From assembly GCA_041661625.1 (NCBI GenBank), contig JBAZUB010000002.1, forward strand, positions 28,059-92,058: a DNA stretch of 64,000 bases, read 5' to 3'. The translations under genes were made by a program, and so were the position numbers. The notes beneath the pieces are model-generated. The model searched no databases. It was not told the DNA's origin and saw only the letters and a list, made by a program, of their open reading frames with translations. Below, piece by piece: positions 29,316 through 64,000 of the stretch; the stretch's first letter is position 1, and each line of letters starts with the position of its first letter. The DNA is from Patescibacteria group bacterium. GTDB lineage: Bacteria > Patescibacteriota > Patescibacteriia > JAHIZJ01.

Positions 29316-29582
29316 TGTGACCGGCAAAGATAGTCTGATAATAGAGCAGGATATTATTTGAATGATGGTTGGGGAGTGTATTCAAATAGCCATAAAATCT
29401 TCGAAGGAATGATTTCTAGTAATGCATACAAACAAGATCAGCCCCAAGTCAGTTATCAATACGCGGGCCGGGTAACTGACGATAGCGACTATTTGAATTA
29501 TGCATTTGATATGCTATTTGAAGAAATTATGAAGCAAAACAACTTATTGACAACTAATGACAATTAGGATTATACTGTAATC

Positions 29583-45900: not shown

Positions 45901-46828
45901 AAGCAGTCAGAATCATCCATTCCGGTCGGATATTATTCTTCTTCAAATTGTGCACCAACTTCAATCGGCGCACCAGCTTGCGTTTGCGGTTTAAGGACGC
46001 GGTACGCATCTCGGTCTCGAGCTCGGAAATCAGCCCATCCATATCAATCACGTCGAGCAGGTGACGGACCGCTTCGGCGCCGATGCTAGCCTCGAAGACA
46101 TGGCCGTACTTGAGCGATAAGTCTTGATAAGTGCTTTCCGAGATTATTTGCAATCGTTTCAGGCTGCGCAGTTCCTTGCGGGCCAATTCAACTAAGGCGT
46201 CCAACTCCTTGATCTGTTCGTCTTTGAGCTTGGCATTGGCGGCCAATTCATCGGCCAGCATCTTCTCGTCGGGTTTGCTGGCATGGCGCTGGCGGGTTTC
46301 GTTGGCCAGGCGATTGAAGTTATTCTCAATCTGTTTTTTCTTCGATTGGCCCTCGCCGTCGATTTGCTTCAGGCTTTCCTGGCGCAGGTCCTCGTCGACC
46401 TTGGTAATAATAAAATTGGCGAAGTAGATAACCTTCTCAAGCTCCTGGGCGGATAGATCAAGCACTAGGCCGATCTTGGATGGCACGCCGCGGAGAAACC
46501 AGATGTGTGAAACCGGCGCGGCCAGATCGATATGACCCATGCGCTCACGGCGGACGATACTGCGGGTCACTTCCACGCCGCATTTGTCGCAAATAATGCC
46601 CTTGTAGCGAATCCGCTTGTATTTGCCGCAGTAACATTCCCAATCCTTAGATGGGCCAAAAATCTCTTCGGCAAACAAGCCGTCTTTTTCCGGTTTCTGA
46701 GTGCGGTAGTTGATGGTTTCCGGTTTGGTTACCTCGCCGTACGACCATTTGTGGATGTCGTCAGGAGAAGCCACCTTTAACCGGATGGCCCGGAAGTCCG
46801 GACTCTTCGATTCGTCTTGGTGGGGCAT
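42974..46828 (-). CDS. rpoC: DNA-directed RNA polymerase subunit beta'
   Basis: 1284 aa; zinc-binding CYCGKYKR...CDKCG, NADFDGD catalytic motif, canonical beta' throughout. Confidence 0.97.
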
Positions 46829-49800: not shown

Positions 49801-50271
49801 GGCGCCGTAGTAACGGCGGCCGCGATAGAGCTCCGAAGTAAAAAACACTCCGGCTGATCGGATCAGCTGGGATACTACGACGCGCTCAATGCCATTGATA
49901 ATGAAGGTGCCGCGGTCAGTCATCAACGGAAAGTCGCCCAAATAGACCTCTTGTTCCTTGATTTCACCGGTTTTCTTGTTGACCAGTCGGCAATTGACCC
50001 GGAGAGCGGCCTCATAGGTCAGATTCTTGGCTTTGGCCGTATTTTCGTCGAATCTGGGCTCATCCAGGTAGTAATTCTCGAAGTATAACTCAAGATTCCG
50101 GCCAATATACTCTTGGACGGGTGAAATCTCTTCAAATAGCTCTTTTAACCCCTCACGAAAAAACCAGTCATACGACTTGCGCTGGATTTCGATCAGATTG
50201 GGTAACGATATTGCTTCGCGCAGGGGCTTAAAGTACTTGCGCTCCTGCCTTTTAGTATGCAATTGAGACAT
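46837..50271 (-). CDS. rpoB: DNA-directed RNA polymerase subunit beta
   Basis: 1144 aa; canonical beta subunit blocks (e.g. [38 protein letters not shown]). Confidence 0.97.
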   Translation of the reverse strand: [1144 protein letters not shown]

Positions 50272-50379
50272 AAAACTCCACCCTCTCCCGTGTCGCCAGC
50301 CAGGAGACGGGGTATGAATCTATAAAATTGGCTCAATTTCGCCTGAAAAACCCTATATTTACGCCTAACATGTAAATTG

Positions 50380-50408
50380 ATGATAACACAAAAAACCAAG
50401 TTGTCAAC
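50380..50408 (-). promoter_or_regulatory. Candidate rpoBC promoter on minus strand (TTGACA-17-TATCAT with upstream TG)
   Basis: Hexamers read on reverse complement ~110 nt upstream of rpoB start. Confidence 0.45.
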
Positions 50409-50532: not shown

Positions 50533-50578
50533 ACAGTTATTATTTAGAAAATGAAACCAGGCTCATATGTGAGCCTGG
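50533..50578 (-). terminator. Rho-independent terminator after giant gene A (ccaggctca tatg tgagcctgg + TTTCATTTTCT on minus strand)
   Basis: 9-bp stem, U-tract; 34 nt downstream of gene A stop. Confidence 0.6.
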
Positions 50579-50611: not shown

Positions 50612-53600
50612 CTAACGCAATTCGTATTTCATGTAATAGGCCGATACGATCTTCTGCTTGATCAGACGCCCCGAAAGGTTAAGACAGGGCATATATGCGT
50701 AACACGTACCCCGATATTTATCACCACTGGCGCAGATATTAACATATGTATTATCAATACAAACCTGGCTTGGCGTGTCGCTATAGGGGTAATCCGGGTC
50801 TACCAGATAGGCCGCTCCGGTGCAGGATCCATTAAGATAGTAATTGGTGCCATACGCATCAGCCGAAACCTCGGTAGAATTGGGCGGACAAATCAATCCA
50901 CCGGCTGCATATGCCAAACTGCTAGAAATGGCGGAGCCGGTATCGTACCAGAATTTAACGCCGGTTGCCGTGTTGTCTCTGGTGGTGCCGGTGGTATAGA
51001 TATAACGCCCGAGGCAGACATCGGTACCGATTTCGCAGACACTTATCGAAACCGGCTTATCGCGACCTTGAAGTATCAGGTGGTTAGGAATACCGACCTT
51101 GCCGGAAAAAGTCGCTGCCCATCCGGTGCCGTCCTGTTGAGCGTACAGGGCCGAGCCCGACGCATTATTGGCATATATGCCCAACCCATCATTAGCATTG
51201 CCCGTGTTTGATGATCCAGCATTGATAGTTAACTTGGCATTGGGTCCGGTTTGTCCAATGCCGACCTTGCCGGTTCCGGTTATGTTTAGATCGCTTCGAC
51301 CCTGTGTTCCGAGCGACAGTATTTTATTTTCGTAGGAACCCACGTAGGCTTCTCCGGTGCCCGCTATGGAAATTTCCAGCCCGTCCCCGGCCGTTTGTCC
51401 GGTGTTCGTATTTTGCAGCAGCAGTACCGTGGGTGAGGCCGTGTCTTTGTACATATTCAGGAGAGACCTAGGAGTTGTTGTGCCCACGCCAACATTACCG
51501 CCCGTGAGAATAGTGATTCGGTCTTCGTTGCCACTACCATTTGCTAAGCGCAGGTCATTGCCGGCAGTGTACACACTGGCATAACCGGCCGCCGGCTTGA
51601 ACTTCAATAAACTGCCGGTGGTGCTAAACTGTATGTTGCCGGCAACGGTAAGTTTCTCGGTCAGGGTAGCGGTGCCAATGCCTACGTTGGTTCCATTATC
51701 AAATATTTGGGAGTCGCCCAGTGTGGTGCCGGCCGTGAATTTTGGTAAATAGTTGATTGTGCCCGAACCACCAATTCCGCCGCCACCCAGGTCGTCAGTT
51801 TCGCATGTCACCGACCCGTCAGCCGCGATTGCTCTAATCGAACTGCCGGCCGCGCAATCGGAAAAATATTTGGTCGTGCCATCCAGCTTGTATATGCTGC
51901 TCGCTATCGCTAAGCCGCCGCTATTGTTCAAGCGCAGATACTCGACACCGCCCTTGTAGAATCTAATCCCCTCCTTGCCTTCGATGGTCAGCGCTTGATT
52001 TGGCGTAAGATTGCTGGCGACTCCAATTAGACCGATTCGATCAGTTGTCATGCCGCCAATGATGAGCGCGTCAGCATCAGATCGCGCGCTGACTTGGCCC
52101 GAGAAGTACCCCGCATAACCAGCCGCGTTAGTCTGCTCACCGTAGATGGCCGCGTTAGCCGAATTGTTTTTTACCGATAGTTGCGTTGAATCACCAATAT
52201 TATTATGCCCAATTGCCACCTTGTCAGTCGCCTCATTGTTGGGATTGATAGTGTTGGCGCTGGCACCGGCTTCCCAGAGGCTAGACCCTCCAGCTATGGC
52301 CCAAGAGAGATTGCCCGAGCCATCGTTCTTTAAATAGGTACCTACACCACCCTGCGCATTTGGCCAAGAGTAGGTAATGTTTCGTAATTTAATGATATTG
52401 CCCGTGGAGTCGACCTGGAACTGGTGGCTGCTGCCGACCGTGAGAAGGGAAGTGGGGGCGGTATCACCAATGCCAACATTGCCGCCGGTCAAAATAGTGA
52501 TACGGTCTTCGTTGCCATTACCATTAGCTAGGCGCAGATCAGTGCCGGTGGTATATATGCTGGCGAAACCGGCGGTCGGTTTAAATTTCAGTAAACCGCC
52601 GGTTGTACTTAGTTGAATGTTGCCTGCTATGGTAAGCTTTTCAGTCATCGTGGTGGTTCCAATGCCAACATTGCCATTCATCAAGGCGGTTCGCCCCGAG
52701 AAGTAACCGGCGAACCCCGCGGCGTTCAGCTGTTCAGCATAAATTGCCGAATTAACAGAATTATTATAGGTGGCGAAAGCGGTCAGATCACCCTCGGTTG
52801 CTTGACCTACCCGGACCTTGTCATCGATCTCGGCCGGATAAACACTGTTAACGCCATTATGCGTCCAGAGAGTGTTGATCTGCAATCGATGATTCCCGCC
52901 CCCGACATTAATTTCCTGAGTCCAGATGCCGGTGCCGTTAACTAATTCGCTGCCGAGATATTCTGGAGTAGCATCTGCCGCGCTAGTCATGACCATGAAA
53001 GTGTCAGAACCAGCCGCACCGAAATCGTCGAATTCACAGGTTACGGTGCCATCAGCCGCGATGGCTCGGATAGAATTGCCAGCCGCACAGTCCGCAAAAA
53101 ACTTGGTTGTGCCGTTCAGCTTGTACAGTCCACCCGACATAGCCAAGTCGCCGTCGATACCCAGCTCTTGATTTGGGCTGACGGTATTGATACCCATCCG
53201 GCCTCCCATAACAACGGTTTTACCAGAAAAATATCCTGCATACCCATTGGCGTTAGCTTGTTCGAAATATCCTGCGGCATTCAATGAGCCGTTCTTCACG
53301 GATAATTGCGTCGAATCACCAATATTATTGTGCCCAATTGCCACCTTGTCGGTCGTCTCGTTAATCGGATTGATCGTGTTCGCGGTCGCGCCGGCTTCCC
53401 AGAGGCTGGCGCCCGCACCCTGATCGACGCCACAGAAAAGATTGCCATTGGCGTCGACGTCGACCGTGTTATTTCCGGTGCAGCCTGTGAGGCCGGGGAT
53501 TCTGATGGTGCCATCTCCGAGTATGCGCATTCGCTCAGCAAAAGCGCCGGTGTTCGTAGTGAAGAAAATCATGTCAAAGGTGTTGGATCCGAGTTGCCGC

Positions 53601-54349
53601 TCGACCGCAATCCGGCCGTTCGAACCATCCGGCCCCCAGGGGAATCCCGCCGAACCGCCAAAGCGCCAGTCGATACCCATGGCGTTCGAACCGTTGTTAT
53701 CCAAACTATCGATGGTAAACATAGACTTGTAGCCGACCACGCTCGCTCCAACGGCCAGTGGCGCGCTGGGATTGTTTGTGCCAATGCCGACATTCCAGCT
53801 CAAGTTGGTGGGATACAGATTCGCGCCAACCTGGGTCCAAAAACCGCCACCTCCGCCACCCCCGCAACCCAACGTTCCCTCGTTGTCCGTGCTGACACCG
53901 CCGCAACCGGCACCGCCATTGATCAGATTCTGCACGGATAGTTGGCCCACATTCGCTCCAGCCTGAGAGATTTTTACTTTACCTTGCAGTTCAATGTGAT
54001 CACCTATGTCGCCGGGTGAAACATAGAGCGTGTTGGCGCCGAAGTTAATATGCGGTTTGGCCAAGTCGGCGCCATTAAACCAAAAAATACCAGTATTGTC
54101 GTACGGTATGTACAGGCTACCGGATGAAACGCTCAGGAATTCCCCCGCCACGGTCAATGAGCCATTCTTTGTTTGAGGTGAAGACGAGGTATTGATCGGC
54201 GCGGCGACATTGCCCCCCGGCGGTGCACTTTCGGGAGGAGACCAAGCCGCTAGCGCTTGGCCAACCGGTGCCGATAATGCCACGCACAAGAGCACCGGCA
54301 TGACCATTAGGTACACCAGCTTTGAGCCACGGAATAGATTTGATTTCAT
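50612..54349 (-). CDS. giant secreted repeat protein (paralog A), phage tail-fibre-like repetitive modules
   Basis: 1245 aa; signal peptide MKSNLFRGSKLVYLMVMPVLLCVALSAPVGQALA; shared N-terminal module with B and D; Gly/Asn/Thr-rich repeats. Confidence 0.8.
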   Translation of the reverse strand: MKSNLFRGSKLVYLMVMPVLLCVALSAPVGQALAAWSPPESAPPGGNVAAPINTSSSPQTKNGSLTVAGEFLSVSSGSLYIPYDNTGIFWFNGADLAKPHINFGANTLYVSPGDIGDHIELQGKVKISQAGANVGQLSVQNLINGGAGCGGVSTDNEGTLGCGGGGGGGFWTQVGANLYPTNLSWNVGIGTNNPSAPLAVGASVVGYKSMFTIDSLDNNGSNAMGIDWRFGGSAGFPWGPDGSNGRIAVERQLGSNTFDMIFFTTNTGAFAERMRILGDGTIRIPGLTGCTGNNTVDVDANGNLFCGVDQGAGASLWEAGATANTINPINETTDKVAIGHNNIGDSTQLSVKNGSLNAAGYFEQANANGYAGYFSGKTVVMGGRMGINTVSPNQELGIDGDLAMSGGLYKLNGTTKFFADCAAGNSIRAIAADGTVTCEFDDFGAAGSDTFMVMTSAADATPEYLGSELVNGTGIWTQEINVGGGNHRLQINTLWTHNGVNSVYPAEIDDKVRVGQATEGDLTAFATYNNSVNSAIYAEQLNAAGFAGYFSGRTALMNGNVGIGTTTMTEKLTIAGNIQLSTTGGLLKFKPTAGFASIYTTGTDLRLANGNGNEDRITILTGGNVGIGDTAPTSLLTVGSSHQFQVDSTGNIIKLRNITYSWPNAQGGVGTYLKNDGSGNLSWAIAGGSSLWEAGASANTINPNNEATDKVAIGHNNIGDSTQLSVKNNSANAAIYGEQTNAAGYAGYFSGQVSARSDADALIIGGMTTDRIGLIGVASNLTPNQALTIEGKEGIRFYKGGVEYLRLNNSGGLAIASSIYKLDGTTKYFSDCAAGSSIRAIAADGSVTCETDDLGGGGIGGSGTINYLPKFTAGTTLGDSQIFDNGTNVGIGTATLTEKLTVAGNIQFSTTGSLLKFKPAAGYASVYTAGNDLRLANGSGNEDRITILTGGNVGVGTTTPRSLLNMYKDTASPTVLLLQNTNTGQTAGDGLEISIAGTGEAYVGSYENKILSLGTQGRSDLNITGTGKVGIGQTGPNAKLTINAGSSNTGNANDGLGIYANNASGSALYAQQDGTGWAATFSGKVGIPNHLILQGRDKPVSISVCEIGTDVCLGRYIYTTGTTRDNTATGVKFWYDTGSAISSSLAYAAGGLICPPNSTEVSADAYGTNYYLNGSCTGAAYLVDPDYPYSDTPSQVCIDNTYVNICASGDKYRGTCYAYMPCLNLSGRLIKQKIVSAYYMKYELR

Positions 54350-54378
54350 ATGGGAGTATTTTATATTAACCGGCTGAT

Positions 54379-54387
54379 ATTATACCA
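54379..54387 (-). promoter_or_regulatory. extended -10 (TGgTATAAT) candidate promoter for gene A
   Basis: Read on reverse complement 30 nt upstream of gene A start. Confidence 0.4.
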
Positions 54388-54511
54388 TAAATAATCCCGC
54401 CGACACAATGTGGTGCATGCAGCCATAACAAACCAGACCCATAAATGGGTCTGGTTATTCTATTTCGGTTTTAGTTTATTTCTGATTGTTGGCCTGGATG
54501 AATCAGGCTGG

Positions 54512-57500
54512 TTATTTGACCTTTTGCTCCAGTCGATCGAGGCGGGCGGTGAGTTCATCGATCGTATGGCTCTGCTTATCGATAATCTGACTCTGTTCCT
54601 GGATCGCCTTGACCATTGGGGCCATCAAGTCGTTGTAACGAAGATTTCTGGTCTTTTCGGCATCGTTATCTATCAATAGCATGTTGTATTCATCGGGCGA
54701 CACGAGCTTCTCAATATCCTGGGCGATGAAGCCGAAGTCAGTCTTGCCGTTGCCGTTCTTCATATTGTACTGCACCGGGCGCAAGCTGTTTATGAAACCC
54801 AGCCCGAGCGAACTATCCTTGATGTTCTCTTTCAACCTGACATCCGAAGGGGAGGAGAATGCAACCTGGATAGTGGCCGATGAAATACTGGCGTTACCAA
54901 TCCGGACTGAATTAGATGCGCTCGTGGTCGCCCCATATCCGATATTGATGGTGTTCTCCAGTGCTCCCGAGGTTGGCCCAGATCCGCGTCCAATGCCCAC
55001 ATTGAAATTTCCGGAGGTAACATTCTCGAGCGCCAGGTAGCCAGCGGACACATTGTATCCGCCGGATACATTGTTGAGCTGACTTCGAGTTCCGATCGCG
55101 ACGTTACCGGCGGCCGTCGTAAGGGCTGTTAGAGCTGATCTACCCACAGCTACGTTGGATGAACTAGTGGTAGATTTCAGTGCTTGAAAGCCAACCGCCG
55201 TGTTTTCGAATGTGTTGGTAATACTAGACAGGGCCTGATAACCGATGGCGGTTTGCTGCGTAGCAGTCGTAATGCTAGCGCCAGCGCCGTTGCCAAATAT
55301 AGTGTTACCATCAACATTGCCCGAACCGCGCCCAGCCCGCAGACCATTGATTGTGATATCACCGTCGAAATATCCGGCCCACTCACCTGCGCCGGTGTTC
55401 CCGCCTACCGAGCCATAGACGCCCGCGCAGGTGCCGGTGCAATTCGACCCCGCCACTAATTCGCCATAGACACCGCTGCCATTTACTCCGGAACCACTGT
55501 TGCCTTTGTAGCCGGATACTGCGTTGTAGTTCGAACTGGAATTGTTATAGGCTGAAACGGTGTTATTTACTGTGTAACCACTCGCGCCGGTTGCGGAAAC
55601 GGTTAACAACGACGCGGGACTAGTGTTGCCGATACCGACCTGACCACCGTTCAACATATACATCACATTGGTCGAAGAGTTATTCCGGATATTCCATCCA
55701 CCGCTGCCGAAATTGGTATACATGACATTATCAGTCCAGCGCGGCCACATCCAGGCATTCCATGCGCCGGCGCTGTCTTTGGCTTCCATAATTTGTCCAT
55801 TGCCTTGCCCGATCGTGCCGTTAACATGAAGAGTCCGCTCGGGAGTTATAGTATTAATGCCAACATTGCCGCCGGTTAAAATGGTAATACGGTCTTCGTT
55901 GCCACTGCCGTTAGCCAGTCGCAGGTCGGTGCCGGCGGTATATATACTGGCAAAACCGGCGGTTGGTTTTAGTTTCAGCTGGCCTCCCGCCGTGCTTAGT
56001 TGAACATTGCCCGCGATCGTAAGTTTTTCGGTAGGTGTTGTCATGCCGATGCCGACGCTACCCGCCCCAGTGATGCTTAGATCGTTTCGGCCCTGGGTGC
56101 CGAGAGATAAAGATCTATTTTCATATGAACCAACATAGGCGTCGCCCAACGCTGCGACCGAAACTTCCAGACCATCACCGTTGGTATTGCCAGTGGTCGC
56201 GTTTTGCACTAATAGAACCGAGCTCCCTCCAATTGGGTTATATAAATCCAGCCGGGAGGCAGGTGTGCTTGTGCCGATACCGACATTACCGGACGTATCA
56301 ACAAACAAGCCTTCATTACCGCCATCATTCGAAACCCAATAGCCGCTCATTCTTAAGTTGGCTCTGGCAATATGATCGCCCAGGTTATCTCCCACGGCTC
56401 CGCCATCGTCAGTCTCGCAAGTCACAGTACCGTCAGCAGCGATAGTTTTGATCGACAGATTTGCACCGCTGCAGGTATCGGCAAAAAACTTTGTTGCGCC
56501 GTCCAGTTTATAGATGCCGCCGGACATTGCCAGGTCGCCACTTAGTCCAAGTTCCTGGTTCGGTGTGGCGGTGCCAACGCCGAGGCGGCCGCCCATTACC
56601 ACGGTTTTGCCTGATAGGTAAGCGGCATATCCCGCGGCATTGGCTTGTTCAAAGTAGGCCGCGGAGTTAGCTGAATTATTTTTTACCGACAACTGGGTTA
56701 AATCGCCGATGTTGTTATGCCCAATCGCCACCTTATCCGTCGCCTCGTTTATCGGATTGATCGTGTTCGCGCTCGCGCCTACCTCCCACAAATTGGAACC
56801 GCCGGCGGGCAACCAGGTTAAATTGCCCGAGCCGTTATTGGTGAGCACAGTACCGGCTCCGCCTTGGCCAACAGGCCAAGAGTAGGTTACGTTTCTAATT
56901 CGGATGGGATTGCCATTAGAATCAACTTGAAACAGGTCGCCGCTACCGACCGTCAAAAGGGAGGCGGGGGTGGTATCGCTAATGCCAACATTGCCACCGG
57001 TTAAAATGGTAATACGGTCTTCGTTGCCATTGCCGTTAGCCAGCCGCAGGTCGGAACCAGTGGTATACAAACTGGCAAAACCAGCTGACGGTTTTAATTT
57101 CAACAAACTACCAACCGTACTGAACTGAATGTTACCAGCAATCGTTAGTTTTTCAGTCAGGGTAGTGGTCCCAATGCCGACATCGCCGTCCATCATCGCG
57201 GTTTTACCGGAAAAATAGGCGGCATAACCGGAGGCGTAGGCCTGCTCAAAGTAGGCCGCTGAGTTAACTGAACTATTTTTTACTGACAACTGCGTTGAAT
57301 CGCCGATAACATTGTGTCCAATGGCCACCTTATCGCTGGCTTCATTTACTGGATTGATCGTATTCGCGGTCACACCGACTTCCCAGAGACCACTGCCACC
57401 CGAGGACGCGATTTGGATCTGTTCATTGCCGCCGGCATTTAGTTTTGTCAGAGTAATATTCGAACCGGCCGATAATTTATCCTGGAGGTAACTAGCGATC

Positions 57501-58756
57501 GAATCCGTGGCCGATGCCTTAACCAATTCATCGGTACCGCCCAGGCCACCCGTTAGGTCAGTGGCGCAGATTAACTGCCCGTTGTTGTCCGCTTTTACCG
57601 TGTTGGCGCCAAGACAAGCGCCGCCAGCCAAGCTAGCTATTCGGGCGCTGCCCACGACGTCGAGTTGATAACTTGGATCGGTCGTTCCAATGCCGACGAA
57701 ACCGCCGAAGATAGAGAAGTCATAATTGTTCGACAGTATTAAGTCAAAATGTCGCGGGCTGTTTTTTGATCCCAAGCCAAGCTTGGCTGCGGTTAGGCCA
57801 TTGTTTAGCCACCAAATATATGGATTTTCGGCTATCGTCGGGTTTTCTTCATTAAGCATCAGCGTGTTTTGGTCGAAAGTCAGCGTGCCCCAGTTTGTGT
57901 CCCAAGGTTTGTTTTCAGAGACTCTGAAACCACCAGAAAAGTAGCCGGCATAACCGAATTGGCTATTCTGTTCTGCGTAGATGGTCGAATTGATGGAATT
58001 ATTAATAACCGACAACTGGGTGGAATCACCGATATTATTGTGCCCAATGGCCACCTTATCGGTCGTCTCGTTTATCGGGTTGATCGTGTTGGCACTCGCG
58101 CCAGCTTCCCACAGGCTAGAGCCACCACCCGAAGCGGCGATCTGAATCTGCTCGTTACCGCCCGGATTTATGGTGGTTAAAGTTACGTTCGCGCCGGCCG
58201 ACAATTTATTAATCAGATAATCCGCCGTCGTATCGAGGTTGGATATTTTTACCAATTTATCATCGCCGCCTGGTCCGACGCCCACCTCATCTGTCGTACA
58301 TACCAGTTTGCCAGCCAGGTCGGTTTTTAGAGTATTTACACCCGTGCATCCAGCCACATTCGGGAATGTTAGATCGCCCTGTAGTTCAATATGATTGTTA
58401 ATCAAGTCACCCGGAGAAATATATAGCGTATTGGTTAGAAAATTTATATGCGGTTGTTCCAAATGGGGCAGGTCGGTCTCGTCGGACCAAAAAATACCCT
58501 TTTCACTACCCGGAATGTACAAATCCCCAGTTGCTAATTTCAGAAAATTGCCGGCCACGGTCAGATCGCCCTGCTTGGTCTGGGGTGTGGCTGATGTATT
58601 GATCGGCGCGGCTACGTTGCCTCCCGGCGGGATGGTTGTCGGGACGGTCCAGGACGCGAACGCCTGCCCGGCAAGTGTAAATAGTGCCACGCATAATAAC
58701 ACCGGCATAGCCACTGGGTACATCAGCTTGAAGCCTCTAAATAGGTTGGGTTTCAT
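54512..58756 (-). CDS. giant secreted repeat protein (paralog B) with C-terminal intramolecular-chaperone (peptidase S74-like) domain of phage tailspike/tail-fibre proteins
   Basis: 1414 aa; signal peptide; C-terminus SSPSDVRLKENIKDS...GFIAQDIEKLVSPDEYN...coiled coil ELTARLDRLEQKVK. Confidence 0.8.
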   Translation of the reverse strand: MKPNLFRGFKLMYPVAMPVLLCVALFTLAGQAFASWTVPTTIPPGGNVAAPINTSATPQTKQGDLTVAGNFLKLATGDLYIPGSEKGIFWSDETDLPHLEQPHINFLTNTLYISPGDLINNHIELQGDLTFPNVAGCTGVNTLKTDLAGKLVCTTDEVGVGPGGDDKLVKISNLDTTADYLINKLSAGANVTLTTINPGGNEQIQIAASGGGSSLWEAGASANTINPINETTDKVAIGHNNIGDSTQLSVINNSINSTIYAEQNSQFGYAGYFSGGFRVSENKPWDTNWGTLTFDQNTLMLNEENPTIAENPYIWWLNNGLTAAKLGLGSKNSPRHFDLILSNNYDFSIFGGFVGIGTTDPSYQLDVVGSARIASLAGGACLGANTVKADNNGQLICATDLTGGLGGTDELVKASATDSIASYLQDKLSAGSNITLTKLNAGGNEQIQIASSGGSGLWEVGVTANTINPVNEASDKVAIGHNVIGDSTQLSVKNSSVNSAAYFEQAYASGYAAYFSGKTAMMDGDVGIGTTTLTEKLTIAGNIQFSTVGSLLKLKPSAGFASLYTTGSDLRLANGNGNEDRITILTGGNVGISDTTPASLLTVGSGDLFQVDSNGNPIRIRNVTYSWPVGQGGAGTVLTNNGSGNLTWLPAGGSNLWEVGASANTINPINEATDKVAIGHNNIGDLTQLSVKNNSANSAAYFEQANAAGYAAYLSGKTVVMGGRLGVGTATPNQELGLSGDLAMSGGIYKLDGATKFFADTCSGANLSIKTIAADGTVTCETDDGGAVGDNLGDHIARANLRMSGYWVSNDGGNEGLFVDTSGNVGIGTSTPASRLDLYNPIGGSSVLLVQNATTGNTNGDGLEVSVAALGDAYVGSYENRSLSLGTQGRNDLSITGAGSVGIGMTTPTEKLTIAGNVQLSTAGGQLKLKPTAGFASIYTAGTDLRLANGSGNEDRITILTGGNVGINTITPERTLHVNGTIGQGNGQIMEAKDSAGAWNAWMWPRWTDNVMYTNFGSGGWNIRNNSSTNVMYMLNGGQVGIGNTSPASLLTVSATGASGYTVNNTVSAYNNSSSNYNAVSGYKGNSGSGVNGSGVYGELVAGSNCTGTCAGVYGSVGGNTGAGEWAGYFDGDITINGLRAGRGSGNVDGNTIFGNGAGASITTATQQTAIGYQALSSITNTFENTAVGFQALKSTTSSSNVAVGRSALTALTTAAGNVAIGTRSQLNNVSGGYNVSAGYLALENVTSGNFNVGIGRGSGPTSGALENTINIGYGATTSASNSVRIGNASISSATIQVAFSSPSDVRLKENIKDSSLGLGFINSLRPVQYNMKNGNGKTDFGFIAQDIEKLVSPDEYNMLLIDNDAEKTRNLRYNDLMAPMVKAIQEQSQIIDKQSHTIDELTARLDRLEQKVK

Positions 58757-58785
58757 ATGTAAAATATTTTATATAAACCAACTTT

Positions 58786-58814
58786 ATTATACTAAGATTG
58801 ATATAATGAAGCAA
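58786..58814 (-). promoter_or_regulatory. Candidate promoter for gene B (TTGCTT-17-TATAAT on minus strand)
   Basis: Hexamers read on reverse complement 30 nt upstream of gene B start. Confidence 0.45.
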
Positions 58815-58890
58815 GGCGCAAAGAAACAGCGACCACAATCCGATCGCCGTTTCTTTCGTTACTATTCTGTTTGCTATCTAGGTCGATCCA

Positions 58891-61800
58891 CTATGGATAC
58901 GGGAAAGCACCCATGTCGGTGCCGGCACCAAAGGCCGGGTTGCCCGTATTAATGCACGGTGATCCAGCCAACAGGTGATAGTCATTAGCGGCTGAGTTGA
59001 TAAACCTTGGATCGGCATTAATATTGTTTGACCCGAAGCCCGACCAGCCGCCTTGAATGTCGGAGTATTGAACCTTGGCACATAGCGGCCAGGGATTAGA
59101 CATCTGCCCGATGCTGGGACTAATTGGCGCGGTATTGGCCCAAACGATACTGCTGTCAAATACCGGATTTTGAGCCAAGCAGGCGCCGAGGTTAGTGGAA
59201 TTATTAACGAATACGCCGCCGCCTTCACCCGAGGTCGTGTTATACGCTACGGTGTTATTCCTGACATTTATCAGATTGCCCGGAGCATCGTACAATACAG
59301 TCAACAACATGCCTCCACCATAACCGTAAGTCGGTAAAATTGTGTTTCTGAACACTGCATTCTTTTCAATCAATGCGCCTCCCCCGCCGGCGAAAGCTAT
59401 TCCAGCTCCCCCAGATTCGGTCGGCCCGATAGTGTTATTTGAAATAGTATTATTCGAGATATTGGCATATCCGCCCCAGTGGTTGATACCGCCGCCGGAA
59501 TATTTTACAGCATTGTTGCTAATAGTATTGTTGGTAATTGTGGTCGATGTACTAGCGTTGCCACCCGACGAGATACCGCCACCATAGCTACCGCTGGTAC
59601 CGGAGGTATTCTGCGTGATGGTGTTGCCGGTAATAGTGAAAGTACCGCCGTTATATGTCGCCGAAACACCAGCGCCGGCACCGTCAGTAACGTTGCTGGT
59701 GACAGTATTGCCGGAAAAAGTTACGGTTCCGCCTATGTCCGCACCACCACCACCACCGCGATTACTTACGCCAGTTCCAAGGGCGGTATTTCCAGTCAGC
59801 GTATTATTGGAAACGGTTCCACTGCCGCGGAAGTAAATACCCCCGCCAAACTTACCGTCATTACTGGTGATTGAGTTACTACTGATATTAGCCGTGCCAG
59901 CCTGACAGTTAACGCCCCCACCGTTTGATCCGCTGCCGCCACCGTGGTGGTTGATGTTGTTATTTTGAATCGTGGCCGAAACGGTACCCGCCAGACACAT
60001 AATACCGGGGCCGCCAGCAGTACAGTTCATAGTGCCAGACATGCCATCTCTAATAGTGTTCCAGGTGATAGTCGCCGATCCGCCCCACACATAGACGCCG
60101 CGGCAATTGCCATAAATTAAGTTATCGTTAATCGTGGCATTGCTGCCTGTTTCAACTTTTACACCCGCGGTCACGCAATTGTATATTTCATTATTTCGGA
60201 CCGTGGCGGTAGCGTTGCCATTGACGGTCACACAGTATGGTTCGACCGGATCGCCCCAGGGGTTATTGAACCCCACGATATAGAAACCCTCCAGAATCGA
60301 ACCGGTGCCGCCGTTGAAAACAACATGCGGAATTTCATTATTCTGTGGAATCATGTCCTGACTTTTTAGAGTAATTGATTTGCCCTGGAAGTCGATTATA
60401 CCCTCATTCCAGAAATACCAGCCACCAGTAGAGTCAGTCACAAGTACATTACCAGCGACCGTGTCAGTGTCGTTGATGGCGGCGGTAATGGTGGCATAGT
60501 TTTCCACTTCGGTCATATTGGCGGCGCTGATGTAGCGTCTGACCCGGCGCGGACAGGCGCCACAGTCGGCAGCACAGCTCGAACACGTTTCTGGCGCTAT
60601 GCACTGTCCATTACCGCAACAGCTGCCGCAATCTCCCGGACAGGTCGAACAGGTTTCACCATTGTTGCACACGGTGTCACCACAGAAGCACGCGCCACAA
60701 TCTCCCGGACAAGAAGTACAATTCTCGCCAAAATTACAGCTACCATCCCCACAGCAGTTGCCGCAATCAGCCGAGCAATTCGAACAATTTTCCGGTGCCA
60801 CGCAGGCGCCGTTGCCGCAACAAGCACCACAATCGGCTGGACAGGTTGAACAGGTTTCACCGTTATTACATTGTGTGTCGGGACAATTGGGGACATCGGC
60901 AATAGTAATGGTAATCGATTCCGTATCGGTGGCGCTGGCCGTATCGGTAGCGGTGAAGACAATATTGGGATAACTGCCCGATTGGGTATAGCTTGGAGTC
61001 CAAGTAAAGGTAGCCTCAAACTTTCCCAGTCCGGCGTTATAGGAAGTGTTGCTTAGGTTTGAACCAGATGGTTTATTAGCTACGCTGATGGTCACCGTGT
61101 CACCCGGTGAGTCTGGGTCGGCCGCACGCACCACAAATGACATAGCGACTCCTTCAGAGCCGTTTTTATTGCCGATCGGATCCAGTACGGGAGGTTGGTT
61201 GGTGTTGGCAATAGTGATAGTAATTGATTCCGTATCGGTGGCGCTGGCCGTATCGGTAGCGGTGAAGACAATATTGGGATAACTGCCCGATTGGGTATAG
61301 CTTGGAGTCCATGTGAAGGTAGCCTCAAATTTACCGGTGCCAGCGTTGTAGGTCGTGTTGCCCAAGCTGGAGCCAGATGGCAGATTAGCGGCGGTTATTG
61401 TAACACTATCGCCGGTAGCTTGATCTGGGTCGCTCGCGCTGATCGTGAAAGACATGGCCGTGCCCTCGGCGCCGTTCTTGTTTCCGATCGGATCGAGCAC
61501 GGGGGGTTGGTTCACCGGAGCGGCACCGAACTTCTTCAATGCTTTAATGCCATTATTGGTGTTTATTCTGACCCTAGTGGCGTTAGGATCGCCCGGCGGT
61601 ACCAGCACTATACTGTATGTTGAGCCATTTTGTTTGACGCGTAATTCGGAAGTTGTCGGACCGGCGGGCACGCAGGCAAAATGAAGTGTTTGGATTCCGT
61701 CATATACTCGGAGGCCGCAGTCGGTTTCGCCGGGAAGTGGGGTGGTTCCCCAAGCCAAGTCAAAAGCTGCCCCATTGTTGGTAAACACGGAGCTACCCAG

Positions 61801-62826
61801 ACCCGTCCAAGTGGTTCCGTTCGTTGAAGTCGCGAAAGTGTTGGTGACATTATTTCCAGCCGCAATCCACTTACCATCGCCCCAGGCCACAGATGTACCA
61901 CCACCACCGGGGGGACTAAAAATATCAAGACCACCCAACCCAACCCAATTGATGCCATCTATGGATGTGGCAATAACGTTGATATCCGTGCCGACATTAT
62001 ATGTATGCGCAACCGCAACCCACCTGCTGCCATTCCAGGCCAAGTCCATACCACCATAACCATCAGCATTAGTAAATATTGAATTGCCCAAACCTGTCCA
62101 ATTAATACCGTCATAAGAGTACGCGATGGTGTTGGCTCCATATCCTACCGCTACCCACATTGTTTCATTCCAGGCAATACCAACGCCGGTATTAGAAAAT
62201 ATTCCTTTACCCAAGCCAGTCCATGAGATGCCGTCATATGAATAGGCGATAGTATTGTTGCCTCCTCCCACCGCAACCCACATTGTTCCGTTCCAAGCAA
62301 CGTCTAAACCGCTCTCGCCTGGATTAGAACCGAATATATTTACACCACCACGGCCAACCCAATTAATACCATCGGCTGATGTAGCAAAATTATTAGGAGC
62401 ATTTCCTACTGCTACCCATTTGTTATCGCCCCAAGCCACGCCATATCCACCGCCTTGTTGGGTCCATTGATTATAATCAAAAATCGAATCACCTAGTCCC
62501 GTCCAGTCGACACCATTCGTAGAATGGGCAACGGTGTTTTCACCCACCCCTACTGCGACCCACATGCTTCCGTTCCAGGCTACACCTTGACCCCATTGGG
62601 AAAATATTGCTTTGCCTTGGCTGGTCCAATTAGTGCCATCCAGGGAAGTGGCCATGGTGGCGTCGTCGCCACGTCCGACTGCTATCCATCGGCCAGCGGC
62701 CACCACTGGTTGGTTCATCATTCCAATTCCTGTCAGCGAGAAAACAAATACCGCGCAGAGGCGGATCAGCCACCATTGGCGACTCTGATGTGCGAGTATA
62801 GTTGTTAGCTCGGACTTCGGGTTCAT
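58891..62826 (-). CDS. giant mosaic surface protein (paralog C): WxAVG beta-propeller-like repeats, tandem Ig/cadherin-like domains, Cys-rich repeats, parallel beta-helix repeats
   Basis: 1311 aa; N-terminal hydrophobic anchor/signal; ~9 repeats of W(V/I)AVG..DG.NWTG; two near-identical PPVLDPIGNKNG..DPD domains; NGETCSTCPxDCG repeats; NNTISNN/GGG beta-helix-like repeats. Confidence 0.8.
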   Translation of the reverse strand: MNPKSELTTILAHQSRQWWLIRLCAVFVFSLTGIGMMNQPVVAAGRWIAVGRGDDATMATSLDGTNWTSQGKAIFSQWGQGVAWNGSMWVAVGVGENTVAHSTNGVDWTGLGDSIFDYNQWTQQGGGYGVAWGDNKWVAVGNAPNNFATSADGINWVGRGGVNIFGSNPGESGLDVAWNGTMWVAVGGGNNTIAYSYDGISWTGLGKGIFSNTGVGIAWNETMWVAVGYGANTIAYSYDGINWTGLGNSIFTNADGYGGMDLAWNGSRWVAVAHTYNVGTDINVIATSIDGINWVGLGGLDIFSPPGGGGTSVAWGDGKWIAAGNNVTNTFATSTNGTTWTGLGSSVFTNNGAAFDLAWGTTPLPGETDCGLRVYDGIQTLHFACVPAGPTTSELRVKQNGSTYSIVLVPPGDPNATRVRINTNNGIKALKKFGAAPVNQPPVLDPIGNKNGAEGTAMSFTISASDPDQATGDSVTITAANLPSGSSLGNTTYNAGTGKFEATFTWTPSYTQSGSYPNIVFTATDTASATDTESITITIANTNQPPVLDPIGNKNGSEGVAMSFVVRAADPDSPGDTVTISVANKPSGSNLSNTSYNAGLGKFEATFTWTPSYTQSGSYPNIVFTATDTASATDTESITITIADVPNCPDTQCNNGETCSTCPADCGACCGNGACVAPENCSNCSADCGNCCGDGSCNFGENCTSCPGDCGACFCGDTVCNNGETCSTCPGDCGSCCGNGQCIAPETCSSCAADCGACPRRVRRYISAANMTEVENYATITAAINDTDTVAGNVLVTDSTGGWYFWNEGIIDFQGKSITLKSQDMIPQNNEIPHVVFNGGTGSILEGFYIVGFNNPWGDPVEPYCVTVNGNATATVRNNEIYNCVTAGVKVETGSNATINDNLIYGNCRGVYVWGGSATITWNTIRDGMSGTMNCTAGGPGIMCLAGTVSATIQNNNINHHGGGSGSNGGGVNCQAGTANISSNSITSNDGKFGGGIYFRGSGTVSNNTLTGNTALGTGVSNRGGGGGADIGGTVTFSGNTVTSNVTDGAGAGVSATYNGGTFTITGNTITQNTSGTSGSYGGGISSGGNASTSTTITNNTISNNAVKYSGGGINHWGGYANISNNTISNNTIGPTESGGAGIAFAGGGGALIEKNAVFRNTILPTYGYGGGMLLTVLYDAPGNLINVRNNTVAYNTTSGEGGGVFVNNSTNLGACLAQNPVFDSSIVWANTAPISPSIGQMSNPWPLCAKVQYSDIQGGWSGFGSNNINADPRFINSAANDYHLLAGSPCINTGNPAFGAGTDMGAFPYP
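60899..61520. repeat. tandem direct repeat, 2 x ~310 bp (first ~105 bp of each copy nearly identical) inside gene C
   Basis: gcaatagt(a/g)at(g/a)gtaat(c/t)gattccgtatcggtggcgctggccgtatcggtagcggtgaagacaatattgggataactgcccgattgggtatagcttggagtcca present at 60899 and 61209. Confidence 0.8.
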
Positions 62827-62842
62827 GGCCGACCTTTTGTTT

Positions 62843-63979
62843 TTAGTTCAATACCAGCCACATCTGTCCGACCGCGGGACTGGCGGGATCGCCTTGGGCC
62901 GCGGTGCGAACCTGAATAACTAAGCCGTCAGTGGCCTTTATCGTACCACCCTGAACTTCGAGTTTAGTGCCGGCTGCCGGGTTCTCCACCCCAATACCCA
63001 CCGCGCCATTCATGATGACAGTTTTGCCGGAAAAGTATCCGGCAAAACCCTGGCCGCCGGTGATCTCGGCGTATAGAGTCTTGTCATTGGCAGCCGTGGC
63101 CGCATTGGTCACTGACAAACGAGTATTGTCACTAATGTCCAGTCGGCCAATTGCCACCTTATCAGTAGTTTCGTTAGTTGGCGCAATGGTGTCTGCAGTC
63201 GAACCAGCCTTCCAAATGCCACCGCCAGCCGCAACAACAGCCCAGGAAAGATTGCCGCTGCCGTCGTTCTTTAAGTATGCGTCATTATCCGCCCCTAGGT
63301 TATTATTCGGCCAATTGTAAGTGACGCCCTTGATCCGGATGATATTACCCGTGGCGTCGACCATGAATTTGTCGCCATTGCCGACGGTGAGAGGCGATAG
63401 AGGGGTGATATCGCCAATGCCAACATTCGCGGTTGGGTTAGTCGGGTAAAGATCGTTCACGTCCTGGGTCCAGAAGCCACCACCAGCCGCGCCGCCGCAG
63501 GTTATTGTGCCATCGGCATCGGTGCTAAGACCGCCGCAACTGACCATATTGGGATTCTGGATACTTAGCGTGGCTAGATTAGTCGGACTGGCCGCGGTGA
63601 TCTTTACGGCGCCTTGCAGCTCAATATGATCGCCCGTTTCGCCAGGGGAAAGATATAGTGAGTTAGCTCCAAAGTTTATGTGGGGCTTAGCCGTGTCTGA
63701 CACGTTGGACCAAAAAACACCCCGGTCCGCCGTGGAAATAAAGAGATCGCCAGTAGCTACCCGGAGATAATTACCAGCTATAGTCAGGTCGCCATTTTTG
63801 GTTTGAGGGGTGGCCGAAGTATTGATTGGCGCAGCCACATTGCCGCCCGGCGGAGCAGTGTCAGGAGCGGTCCAGGATGCCAGCGCCCGGCCGGCCAGAG
63901 TTGAAAATGCCAAGCATAAAAGCACTGGCATAACCGTAAGGTACATCAGCTTTGAGCCTCGAAATAGATTTGATTTCAT
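62843..63979 (-). CDS. secreted protein (paralog D) sharing N-terminal module of A and B, short form (378 aa)
   Basis: MKSNLFRGSKLMYLTVMPVLLCLAFSTLAGRALA signal peptide and first ~120 aa ~75% identical to A; 16-nt gap to gene C suggests co-transcription. Confidence 0.7.
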   Translation of the reverse strand: MKSNLFRGSKLMYLTVMPVLLCLAFSTLAGRALASWTAPDTAPPGGNVAAPINTSATPQTKNGDLTIAGNYLRVATGDLFISTADRGVFWSNVSDTAKPHINFGANSLYLSPGETGDHIELQGAVKITAASPTNLATLSIQNPNMVSCGGLSTDADGTITCGGAAGGGFWTQDVNDLYPTNPTANVGIGDITPLSPLTVGNGDKFMVDATGNIIRIKGVTYNWPNNNLGADNDAYLKNDGSGNLSWAVVAAGGGIWKAGSTADTIAPTNETTDKVAIGRLDISDNTRLSVTNAATAANDKTLYAEITGGQGFAGYFSGKTVIMNGAVGIGVENPAAGTKLEVQGGTIKATDGLVIQVRTAAQGDPASPAVGQMWLVLN

Positions 63980-64000
63980 ATGGGATTATTTTATGTTAGC

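What the first reader, a model, noticed from the sequence alone, without database searches (positions are those of the whole stretch)
50612..63979. Locus of four giant co-oriented surface-protein genes; three share a ~110-aa N-terminal module and a conserved leader
Genes A, B and D begin with near-identical signal peptides (MK(S/P)NLFRG.KL.Y...MPVLLC.A). A conserved ~110-aa domain follows (…PPGGNVAAPINTS.TPQTK.G.LT.AG…PHINF..N.LY.SPG…HIELQG) before the sequences diverge. The 30 nt upstream of each ATG are also conserved (CATATG-N6-TATTTTAT(A/G)T(T/A)A on the plus strand). Together the genes encode more than 4,300 aa of Gly/Asn/Thr-rich beta-repeat modules. This suggests a family of exchangeable adhesins or receptor-binding fibres with a common secretion/anchoring module, possibly used for attachment to a host cell or substrate.
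Basis: seen in the sequence. Interest (0 to 1): 0.75.

Follow-up and report, generated by a model that had tools for sequence, protein, structure and literature searches.

The report
Tail-fibre-like surface fibres in Patescibacteria
An uncultured ultra-small (Patescibacteria/CPR) bacterium carries, next to rpoB, a cluster of secreted proteins built like phage tail fibres that share one N-terminal 'handle' and differ at their tips; they are probably surface fibres for attaching to a host cell, and closely resemble the prey-recognition fibres of the predator Bdellovibrio.

Summary
Genes A (50612-54349), B (54512-58756) and D (62843-63979), all on the minus strand, share a 34-35-aa Sec-type signal peptide, a ~90-aa mature N-terminal module (57-69% identity) and a leader made of a perfect TATAAT box plus ATAAAATA. 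Gene C is an unrelated secreted protein, and D has only 378 aa.

Third-codon identity in the module is 35-47%, so the paralogs are old and not an assembly artefact. B ends in a Peptidase_S74 chaperone with the SDxxxK dyad; its model matches solved S74 structures. A ends in a unique Cys-rich tip.

Related Patescibacteria MAGs carry one to at least five such genes at the same site, between a Mur ligase gene and rpoB. Some relatives are mosaics, and some have homogenised 5' ends.

The full module is rare (~20 clusters). Its first 30 residues (W..PT..PPGGNV.AP.N.S...Q.K.G.L) follow a signal peptide in more than 2,500 protein clusters, in Patescibacteria wherever an organism was named. No Pfam, NCBIfam or PDB match exists.

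Best reading: trimeric, tail-fibre-like surface adhesins architecturally like the Bdellovibrio MAT family. Function is inferred, not shown. This is a new variant of a known kind, of moderate interest.

The parts
62843..63979 (-). Gene D: short family member (378 aa) with signal peptide, N-module, one shaft unit and a C-terminal ...GQMWLVLN end. GenBank MFA6198270.1, 'hypothetical protein'.
63605..63979 (-). D signal peptide (aa 1-35, ...RALA|SW) plus conserved N-terminal module (aa 36-125).
63980..64000 (-). Part of the D leader (gctaacATAAAATAatcccat). The TAGTATAAT -10 box and a TTGACG -35 box lie just beyond the window end (L002 9944-9972).
58891..62826 (-). Gene C: unrelated secreted protein of 1311 aa. 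It has its own signal peptide, W.AVG propeller-like repeats, two He_PIG Ig domains, CxxC-rich repeats and a right-handed beta-helix. It starts 16 nt after the D stop, so it is probably co-transcribed with D.
54512..58756 (-). Gene B: 1414-aa fibre protein of the S74 type. GenBank MFA6198268.1, 'tail fiber domain-containing protein'.
58367..58756 (-). B signal peptide (aa 1-35, ...QAFA|SW) plus N-module (to about aa 130).
58757..58791 (-). B promoter and leader: TATAAT at 58786-58791, ATAAAATA at 58765-58772, then ttttaCAT before the ATG. Predicted to be unstructured.
54515..54847 (-). B C-terminal Peptidase_S74 intramolecular chaperone (aa 1304-1414). The catalytic motif S1304-D-V-R-L-K1309 gives the predicted autocleavage site.
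54431..54456 (-). Intrinsic-terminator-like hairpin (11 bp) plus T-run after B.
50612..54349 (-). Gene A: 1245-aa fibre protein of the non-S74 type. GenBank MFA6198267.1, 'hypothetical protein'.
53975..54349 (-). A signal peptide (aa 1-34, ...QALA|AW) plus N-module (aa 35-125).
54350..54384 (-). A promoter and leader: TGgTATAAT with TATAAT at 54379-54384, ATAAAATA at 54357-54364, then ctccCAT before the ATG. Predicted to be unstructured.
50615..51082 (-). A C-terminal Cys-rich tip (aa ~1090-1245, 8 Cys). No relative was found among any fetched protein. Candidate ligand-binding tip.
50557..50578 (-). Terminator-like hairpin after A. The rpoB promoter (TTGACA-16-TATCAT, 50380-50407) follows.

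Best explanation
A, B and D are paralogous, Sec-exported, phage-tail-fibre-like fibre proteins of an uncultured Patescibacteria (CPR) bacterium. They sit in a variable-copy island fixed between a Mur-ligase gene and rpoB.

Proposed mechanism:
1. Transcription. A and B each have their own strong -10 promoter and terminator. D has its own promoter and is probably co-transcribed with C. The short, unstructured, A/U-rich leader suits Shine-Dalgarno-independent initiation, which is the norm in this genome. (Sequence shown; function inferred.)
2. Export. A 34-35-aa signal peptide directs export, and signal peptidase I cuts at AxA just before (A/S)W. (Inferred.)
3. Anchoring. The conserved ~90-aa mature N-terminal module stays cell-proximal and docks the fibre onto a common envelope component. 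(Inferred from its position, from purifying selection, and by analogy with Bdellovibrio MAT fibres.)
4. Shaft. The shaft is a shuffled set of short beta modules: VGIGTxxPxxxL 'capping loop' units, disulphide hairpins and, in B, YadA-head-like repeats. These probably fold as an intertwined trimer. (Inferred.)
5. Tips. In B the C-terminal S74 chaperone drives trimerisation and then cuts itself off at Ser1304. A carries a unique Cys-rich tip instead. The variable distal ends bind host-cell or substrate ligands. (Inferred.)

Diversity arises over evolutionary time through duplication and module or tip swapping, with the conserved 5' end as a likely recombination handle.
For: Organism:
- GenBank labels the proteins 'Patescibacteria group bacterium'.
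- In the species-genome scan, every locus whose record names a phylum-level group is Patescibacteria, apart from five TPA records labelled Gammaproteobacteria or Hyphomicrobiales.

Secretion:
- The n/h/c regions and the AxA site are conserved.
- Across 144 relatives the W sits at median position 31, Ala is at -1 in 118/144, V/L/I/A dominate at -3, and a strongly hydrophobic segment lies upstream.
- Cysteines come in pairs.

Fibre nature:
- Peptidase_S74 hits B with E 1e-11.
- Ser and Lys of SDxxxK are invariant in 18 relatives.
- The model of this domain (pLDDT 85-97) matches MyRF ICA 7dc3 and endosialidase chaperone 3gw6/3gud with probability 0.96-1.0.
- PHROG tail-spike and tail-fibre families hit.
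- B weakly hits the Bdellovibrio MAT fibre Bd2133, PDB 8ond.
- The capping-loop motif occurs 7, 8 and 1 times in A, B and D, and not at all in C.

Common N-terminal domain under selection:
- Amino-acid identity is 65-66% while third-codon identity is only 35-47%.

Cellular, not phage:
- Synteny Mur ligase - fibre genes - rpoB holds in five other MAG contigs.
- No phage genes lie in the flanks.
- No relative was found in IMG/VR.

Modularity:
- P0006 is a mosaic of A and B.
- Copy number ranges from 1 to at least 5.
- 5' ends are homogenised in L004/L007.

Known analogue:
- All 21 Bdellovibrio MATs have a conserved ~130-aa domain right after the signal peptide. They fall into S74 and non-S74 subfamilies with variable tips (PMC10769870).
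Against: - No experimental data exist for localisation, oligomeric state or ligand.
- Homology of the N-module to the Bdellovibrio MAT N-domain could not be tested, because the full-length Bd sequences could not be retrieved.
- The sequence link to Bd2133 is weak (E 0.008) and lies in a low-complexity repeat.
- The host-dependent lifestyle of this particular MAG is assumed from the phylum, not shown.
- A perfect -10 box next to rpoB would also fit abundant structural (S-layer-like) proteins.
Confidence: 0.65

Rival explanations
1. They are structural envelope proteins: S-layer or sheath subunits with a conserved N-terminal cell-wall anchor and variable outer parts. They would serve as a protective or antigenically variable coat rather than as adhesins.
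For: - Strong promoters and a position beside rpoB.
- Gly/Asn/Thr/Ser-rich composition.
- A conserved N-terminus with a variable remainder.
- From my own knowledge, this arrangement recalls the Campylobacter fetus Sap S-layer family; that resemblance is not tested here.
Against: - The S74 chaperone, tail-fibre PHROG hits, capping-loop motifs and YadA-head-like repeats point to trimeric fibres, not 2-D lattice subunits.
- No SLH or other S-layer Pfam domain was found.
- The proteins are much longer and more repetitive than typical S-layer proteins.
Confidence: 0.12
2. They are secreted tailspike-like enzymes or weapons. Together with the beta-helix protein C they would degrade or penetrate the capsule or cell wall of the host, so attachment would be secondary.
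For: - C carries a right-handed beta-helix (Pfam Beta_helix and NosD hits).
- S74 domains are classically found on endosialidase tailspikes.
- B hits the tail-spike family phrog_4636 with E 3e-31.
Against: - No catalytic glycosidase or lyase family was detected in A, B or D.
- The PHROG hit covers the YadA-like repeats plus S74, not an enzyme core.
- C is absent from the equivalent islands of relatives.
Confidence: 0.1
3. They are remnants of a prophage or tailocin: true tail-fibre genes rather than cellular surface proteins.
For: - NCBI names B 'tail fiber domain-containing protein'.
- PHROG tail families hit A and B.
Against: - They carry Sec signal peptides.
- Each has its own promoter and terminator.
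- No capsid, tail, terminase or integrase genes lie nearby.
- The chromosomal site is the same in several species.
- The N-module was not found in 2.9 million viral contigs.
Confidence: 0.03
4. It is an assembly artefact: a collapsed or chimeric repeat.
For: The genes are repetitive.
Against: - Paralogue DNA identity is only 62-78%.
- Third-codon positions are near saturation.
- Identical proteins occur on contigs of 267,894 bp and 311,612 bp from different sources.
Confidence: 0.01

Closest known systems
Bdellovibrio bacteriovorus MAT (mosaic adhesive trimer) fibre family (Caulton et al. 2024, PMC10769870)
   Same: - A multi-paralogue family of long fibre proteins in a bacterium that lives on other bacteria.
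- A signal peptide followed directly by a conserved N-terminal domain of about 100-130 aa shared by all members.
- Both S74-terminated and non-S74 members.
- A recurring VG(G/N)xxxPxxxL capping-loop motif.
- Mosaic, swappable tips.
- Weak direct sequence similarity of the shaft to Bd2133.
   Different: - A different phylum.
- From my own knowledge, the Patescibacteria envelope is monoderm-like and that of Bdellovibrio is diderm; this was not tested here.
- Here the genes are clustered in tandem at one site.
- Homology of the N-terminal domain to the MAT N-domain is untested.
- The first 30 residues of the N-module form a motif seen only in Patescibacteria wherever an organism was named.
- No localisation or binding data exist here.
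Phage tail fibres and tailspikes with a C-terminal S74 intramolecular chaperone (K1F endosialidase 3GW6, T5 pb1 4UW8)
   Same: B has the S74 domain with the Ser-Lys dyad and a matching predicted fold. PHROG tail-fibre and tail-spike hits were found.
   Different: These are chromosomal genes with Sec signal peptides and no virion genes nearby. The N-terminus is not a tail-attachment domain, and no viral relatives of the N-module were found.
Trimeric autotransporter adhesins (YadA family)
   Same: B residues ~1140-1290 carry YadA-head-like NxxAxGxxA repeats. Relatives are named 'trimeric autotransporter adhesin' by JGI, and one has PF05658.
   Different: There is no C-terminal beta-barrel anchor (no YadA_anchor hit). 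The conserved, presumably anchoring, end is the N-terminus.
Variable surface protein families with a conserved leader plus signal peptide (Mycoplasma Vsp/Vlp/Vsa; Campylobacter fetus Sap). This comparison is from my own knowledge and not from a tool.
   Same: Tandem paralogues share the 5' leader, signal peptide and N-terminal part, and differ downstream.
   Different: No lipobox, homopolymer tract, invertible promoter or DGR was found. All copies appear independently expressible.

Membership tests
Bdellovibrio-type MAT fibre family | A signal peptide followed immediately by a conserved ~130-aa domain shared by all paralogues | tested here: met
   A, B and D share a signal peptide plus a ~90-aa module at 57-69% identity. 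The definition comes from PMC10769870.
Bdellovibrio-type MAT fibre family | The N-terminal domain is homologous to the MAT N-domain | not tested
   Full-length Bd MAT sequences could not be retrieved: one search returned only proteins under 400 aa, and the PDB holds only C-terminal fragments. The profile of the N-module has no PDB or Pfam match.
Bdellovibrio-type MAT fibre family | Both S74-terminated and non-S74 members occur within one family | tested here: met
   B has Peptidase_S74. A and D do not.
Bdellovibrio-type MAT fibre family | Capping-loop motif V-G-G/N-pi-x-x-P-x-x-x-L in the shaft | tested here: met
   A relaxed regular expression for the motif matches 7 times in A, 8 in B, 1 in D and 0 in C.
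Bdellovibrio-type MAT fibre family | Sequence homology of the shaft to a solved MAT | tested here: inconclusive
   B residues 810-1056 against 8ond_A (Bd2133) give E 0.008 and 17 bits, in a repetitive region.
Bdellovibrio-type MAT fibre family | Intertwined trimer, surface localisation and binding to prey or host | not testable with these tools
Peptidase S74 intramolecular chaperone (B only) | Pfam PF13884 hit above the gathering score | tested here: met
   45.4 bits against a cut-off of 22, E 9.9e-12, residues 1304-1351.
Peptidase S74 intramolecular chaperone (B only) | Catalytic Ser-Lys dyad in an SDxxxK motif | tested here: met
   SDVRLK starts at residue 1304. Ser and Lys are invariant in an 18-sequence alignment.
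Peptidase S74 intramolecular chaperone (B only) | Fold of the chaperone domain | tested here: met
   The AF2 model has pLDDT 85-97 over the domain. The top Foldseek hits are 7dc3 (MyRF ICA, probability 1.0, TM 0.59-0.63) and 3gw6/3gud (probability 0.96-0.99). The E-values are modest, 6e-3 to 0.7.
Peptidase S74 intramolecular chaperone (B only) | Autoproteolysis after trimerisation | not testable with these tools
   Needs expression and SDS-PAGE with an S1304A control.
Prophage or tailocin tail fibre | Embedded among virion or tail-assembly genes, with relatives in viral genomes | tested here: not met
   The flanks encode a Mur ligase, an S8 peptidase, LytR, rpoB and rpoC. No N-module relative was found in IMG/VR.
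Trimeric autotransporter adhesin | C-terminal YadA-type beta-barrel membrane anchor | tested here: not met
   No YadA_anchor hit in the Pfam scan of A-D at E <= 0.01.
Type IV pilin | Short leader ending in G, then F/M-x-x-x-E and a hydrophobic helix | tested here: not met
   The N-termini lack the G|FxxxE motif. The conserved motif lies after, not before, the hydrophobic segment.
Lipoprotein | A conserved lipobox Cys at the end of the signal peptide | tested here: not met
   Cys22 (VLLC) does not fit a lipobox and is absent in many relatives.
Programmed variation systems (DGR target or invertible-promoter family) | Template/variable repeat pair with a reverse transcriptase, or inverted repeats flanking the promoter | tested here: not met
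   No near-identical repeat pairs and no promoter-flanking inverted repeats were found. No reverse transcriptase was found among the window ORFs scanned.

The most novel reading that the evidence does not exclude
The first ~30 residues of the mature proteins are W-x-x-P-[TS]-x-x-P-P-G-G-N-V-x-A-P-[IL]-N-x-[SG]-x-x-x-Q-x-K-x-G-x-L. They always follow an AxA-type signal-peptide end. The motif occurs in more than 2,500 protein clusters at 50% identity, ranging from 64 to 1,617 aa among the 144 listed hits that carry it, and in Patescibacteria wherever the organism was named.

This motif could be a phylum-wide, so far undescribed, surface-display or docking signal. Through such an N-terminal 'handle', CPR cells would mount many different extracellular proteins, including these phage-like host-recognition fibres, on one common envelope receptor or filament.
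Probability: 0.3. Interest if true: 0.8.

Novelty: new variant of a known kind. Interest (0 to 1): 0.55.

Why it matters
How ultra-small Patescibacteria/CPR episymbionts recognise and hold on to their hosts is largely unknown; the literature retrieved here credits mainly type IV pili.

A tandem, fast-diversifying family of phage-tail-fibre-like surface proteins would give concrete candidate host-range determinants. These are comparable to phage receptor-binding proteins and to Bdellovibrio MAT fibres.

The shared N-terminal motif offers a simple sequence tag for listing the displayed surface proteome of any CPR genome, and a bait for finding what it docks to.

The sequences themselves are already public but annotated only as 'hypothetical' or 'tail fiber domain-containing'.

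Tried and rejected
1. The search for homologous proteins with the D N-terminus (130 aa) returned nothing, a limit of the word index. The exhaustive HMM search was used instead.
2. An attempt to fetch full-length Bd2133 through its PDB fragment returned only proteins under 400 aa, none from Bdellovibrio. Homology of the N-module to the MAT N-domain therefore stays untested.
3. The AlphaFold2 monomer of the N-module gave pLDDT 60.7 and pTM 0.24, with only the signal helix and one hairpin defined. It was not used for fold search.
5. Pfam, NCBIfam and PDB profile searches of the N-module gave only scattered chance hits.
6. PF26696, precomputed on some shaft relatives, is not in the local Pfam copy, so its identity is unknown.
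7. A metagenome scan for close relatives of D found none, so no strain-level comparison of cassette content was possible. The only variant seen is G161V in A.
8. Literature string searches for the motif (PPGGNV, AWTEP and others) found nothing relevant. Searches combining Patescibacteria with tail-fibre or S74 terms found no description of this family.
9. Ideas rejected: lipoprotein (Cys22 is not conserved), type IV pilin, structured leader or riboswitch (leaders are unstructured, z about 0), DGR or invertible switch, and prophage.


Full report
**What is there.** The last 13.4 kb of the window holds four minus-strand ORFs: D (62843-63979, 378 aa), C (58891-62826, 1311 aa), B (54512-58756, 1414 aa) and A (50612-54349, 1245 aa). 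They are followed directly by rpoB (46837-50271) and rpoC (42974-46828). The rest of the window is ordinary chromosome: FtsK, RecA, EF-P, SufBCD/S, SHMT, FolD and others. An exact-sequence look-up places the window on a Patescibacteria (CPR) MAG. A is GenBank MFA6198267.1 ('hypothetical'), B is MFA6198268.1 ('tail fiber domain-containing protein') and D is MFA6198270.1 ('hypothetical'). They lie on a 311,612-bp contig, and near-identical copies lie on ENA contig k141_1052516 of 267,894 bp. The parent contig supplied 10 kb upstream of D (locus L002). That stretch encodes a LytR_cpsA_psr protein, a 943-aa S8 peptidase with FG-GAP repeats, and a Mur-ligase-family protein ending about 100 nt before D.

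**Check of the observation.** The first ~125 residues of A, B and D align with 57-69% identity and 67 invariant columns. Whole-protein BLASTP E-values are 1e-72 to 0. Residues 1-34/35 form a classical Sec signal: a basic n-region MK(S/P)NLFRG.K, a hydrophobic core ...MPVLLC(V/L)A... and an AxA site (ALA|AW, AFA|SW, ALA|SW). Synonymous differences within codons 1-16 (for example Arg as cgt, cga and aga) show that the first ATG is the real start. Some gene callers nevertheless began D and A at the internal Met. Residues 36-125 form the conserved module. Upstream, all three genes share GTATAATA, a 13-15-nt spacer, A(T/C)ATAAAATA, and 5-6 nt ending in CAT before the ATG. This combined pattern is expected 0.02 times in the window by chance and occurs twice, with the third copy just beyond the window end. 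D is not giant. C is unrelated. The spacing is N4-5, not N6. Only 21 nt upstream of D lie in the window.

**Not an artefact, not recent.** Paralogous DNA segments are only 62-78% identical. Within the module, amino-acid identity is 65-66% but third-codon identity is 35-47%, and about half of the identical residues use different codons. The copies are therefore old, and the module is held by purifying selection. In the signal-peptide codons third-position identity is higher (57-63%), hinting at extra constraint on the 5' end of the mRNA, though only 35 codons are involved. The leaders are predicted to be unstructured, with dG of -2 to -7 kcal/mol and z-scores of -0.5 to +1.2. Most genes in the window lack a Shine-Dalgarno sequence. 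The A/U-rich ATAAAATA block is therefore best read as part of an SD-independent initiation region downstream of a strong promoter. B and A are followed by clear terminator hairpins (54431-54456 and 50557-50578). C starts 16 nt after D's stop, so D and C probably form one operon, while B and A are monocistronic.

**What the proteins are.**
- B ends in a Peptidase_S74 intramolecular-chaperone domain (45.4 bits against a cut-off of 22). Its SDVRLK motif starts at residue 1304, and Ser and Lys are invariant among 18 relatives.
- A model of B 1200-1414 has pLDDT 85-97 over this domain. Its best PDB matches are the MyRF ICA domain (7dc3, probability 1.0, TM 0.59-0.63) and the endosialidase chaperone (3gw6/3gud, probability 0.96-0.99).
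- PHROG tail-spike and tail-fibre families hit B (3e-31, 2e-14) and A (1e-6).
- B's residues ~1140-1290 are YadA-head-like repeats.
- A lacks S74 and ends in a unique 8-Cys tip.
- A, B and D share shuffled shaft modules and cysteine pairs 13-18 residues apart.
- C is a different secreted protein with propeller-like W.AVG repeats, two He_PIG domains, CxxC repeats and a right-handed beta-helix.

**Closest known system.** The only PDB sequence hit of B is Bd2133 (8ond), a Bdellovibrio 'mosaic adhesive trimer' (MAT) fibre. The hit is weak (E 0.008). Caulton et al. 2024 (PMC10769870) describe 21 MATs, 13 with S74 and 8 without. All have a conserved beta-rich ~130-aa domain directly after the signal peptide. 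That domain is proposed to sit next to the predator's surface and has no PDB homologue. They also describe variable tips that bind prey ligands and a capping-loop motif V-G-G/N-pi-x-x-P-x-x-x-L. The same architecture is found here, and the motif occurs 7, 8 and 1 times in A, B and D, and not at all in C. Whether the two N-terminal domains are homologous could not be tested.

**Distribution.** An exhaustive profile search of 1.84 billion cluster representatives found the full 125-aa module in only about 20 clusters (E < 1e-10). The first ~50 profile positions, meaning the end of the signal peptide plus W..P(T/S)..PPGGNV.AP(I/L)N.S...Q.K.G.L, were found in 2,525 clusters (E < 1e-3).

Among the 150 best hits, 144 carry the motif. 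In those:
- W sits at median position 31.
- Ala is at -1 in 118 of 144, and V/L/I/A dominate at -3.
- Median protein length is 283 aa, with a range of 64-1617.

In 185,579 species genomes a pattern scan gave 47 loci. Every record that names a phylum-level group names a Patescibacteria lineage (Saccharibacteria, Nealson-, Taylor-, Kaiser-, Nomura-, Yonath- and Paceibacteria, among others). The exceptions are five TPA records labelled Gammaproteobacteria or Hyphomicrobiales, three of which hold full-module loci that share the Mur-ligase or rpoB neighbourhood. A metagenome scan gave 126 relatives; contig names that state a source point to groundwater and marine sediment. IMG/VR gave none. The module has no Pfam, NCBIfam or PDB match, and I found no paper that describes it.

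**Island structure.** In the MAGs that carry the full module, the genes sit at the same place.
- L008: S8-like protein, Mur ligase, one 1389-aa gene, rpoB.
- L005: two genes (1590 and 1469 aa), then rpoB.
- L003: at least two genes, the last of 1617 aa with S74, then rpoB.
- L006: Mur ligase, then at least two genes.
- L004 plus L007 (one contig): Mur ligase, at least five genes, rpoB.

Each gene has its own tttt(c/t)AGTATAAT box. P0006 (814 aa) resembles A over residues 1-400 (51%) and B over residues 372-812 (48%), which makes it a head/tail mosaic. In L004/L007 the paralogues are 88-100% identical over the first 300-400 coding nucleotides and then become essentially unalignable. That is the signature of 5' homogenisation, or of recombination at the module boundary. 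No DGR-type repeats or promoter-flanking inverted repeats exist in the window, so I see no programmed switching.

**Interpretation.** The best-supported model (confidence ~0.65) has these steps:
1. Sec export and cleavage before (A/S)W.
2. Docking of the conserved N-module to a common envelope component.
3. A trimeric tail-fibre-like shaft.
4. Variable distal tips, with S74-assisted folding and self-cleavage in B.
5. Tip binding to host-cell or substrate ligands.

The sequence features and family matches are shown. Cleavage, trimerisation, anchoring and ligand binding are inferred. Rival readings are an S-layer-like coat (0.12), tailspike-like enzymes (0.10), a prophage remnant (0.03) and an assembly artefact (0.01).

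**Verdict.** This is a Patescibacteria version of the phage-tail-fibre-derived adhesin families known from Bdellovibrio. It has an N-terminal module that I could not find described and whose leading motif is phylum-wide. It is a new variant of a known kind, with interest 0.55. The most novel reading still open is that the N-terminal motif is a general CPR surface-display signal (p ~0.3).

Noticed in passing
window 27798-27918 (-): A full-length match to the Rfam LOOT RNA (RF03000; 85.9 bits against a gathering score of 46.4). It lies in a low-GC stretch between a zinc-ribbon ORF and an unannotated ORF. The function of this RNA family is unknown.
   Followed up: partly
window ~14000-30000: A low-GC island (38-43% against ~50% elsewhere). 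It carries sugar-modifying genes (DegT aminotransferase fused to NUDIX, an epimerase), a SIR2-like protein and several ORFs with no Pfam hit. A large serine recombinase lies at its edge (29762-31513). It may be a mobile, glycan or defence island.
   Followed up: partly
window 50272-50330 (-); also L003, L005, L007 and L008 just upstream of rpoB: A G/C-rich hairpin followed by a T-run sits immediately before the rpoB start codon, and an equivalent hairpin is present in the related MAGs. It contains the only GGAG-like stretch near rpoB. The whole 109-nt leader does not fold better than shuffled controls (z = -1.2).
   Followed up: partly
whole window: Most genes lack a recognisable Shine-Dalgarno sequence; their upstream regions are A-rich instead. 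The genome therefore seems to rely mainly on SD-independent initiation.
   Followed up: no
window 62843-62960 (-), C-terminus of D: D ends in ...GLVIQVRTAAQGDPASPAVGQMWLVLN. Very similar ends (…GGLIIETRAADPAAPVTGQMWIIN, …NGSMWIQ) close two small motif-bearing proteins (P0057 of 90 aa, P0043 of 85 aa). This may be a short C-terminal end-cap motif of unknown role.
   Followed up: partly
L002 5753-9899 (upstream of D, outside the window); L008 406-4151: A large S8 subtilisin-like peptidase (with FG-GAP repeats in L002) and a Mur-ligase-family gene precede the fibre island in both this genome and L008. The peptidase is a candidate processing or partner protein.
   Followed up: no
L004 and L007 (contig CAYJKP010000003.1): Tandem paralogues have nearly identical leaders and first 300-400 coding nucleotides, but unrelated remainders. 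This suggests gene conversion or recombination at the module boundary. One copy is interrupted by a run of N.
   Followed up: yes
window 53869 region (A residue 161): The ENA/JGI copy of A differs from the GenBank/window copy by a single residue (G161V), next to the first cysteine hairpin. No other strain-level variation was available.
   Followed up: partly
window 12937-13740 (-): A 267-aa ORF with bacterial thrombospondin type-3 (TSP3) calcium-binding repeats. It is another likely extracellular protein, unrelated to the fibre family.
   Followed up: no
proteins P0279, P0281 and P0202 (Bacteroidota-like relatives of the shaft): Shaft and S74 relatives from other phyla carry a different conserved domain after their signal peptide (…NESGN.PD.SAMLDISST.KG.L.PRMT..QRNAI..PA.GL…). 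The fibre shaft therefore seems to be combined with lineage-specific N-terminal domains.
   Followed up: no
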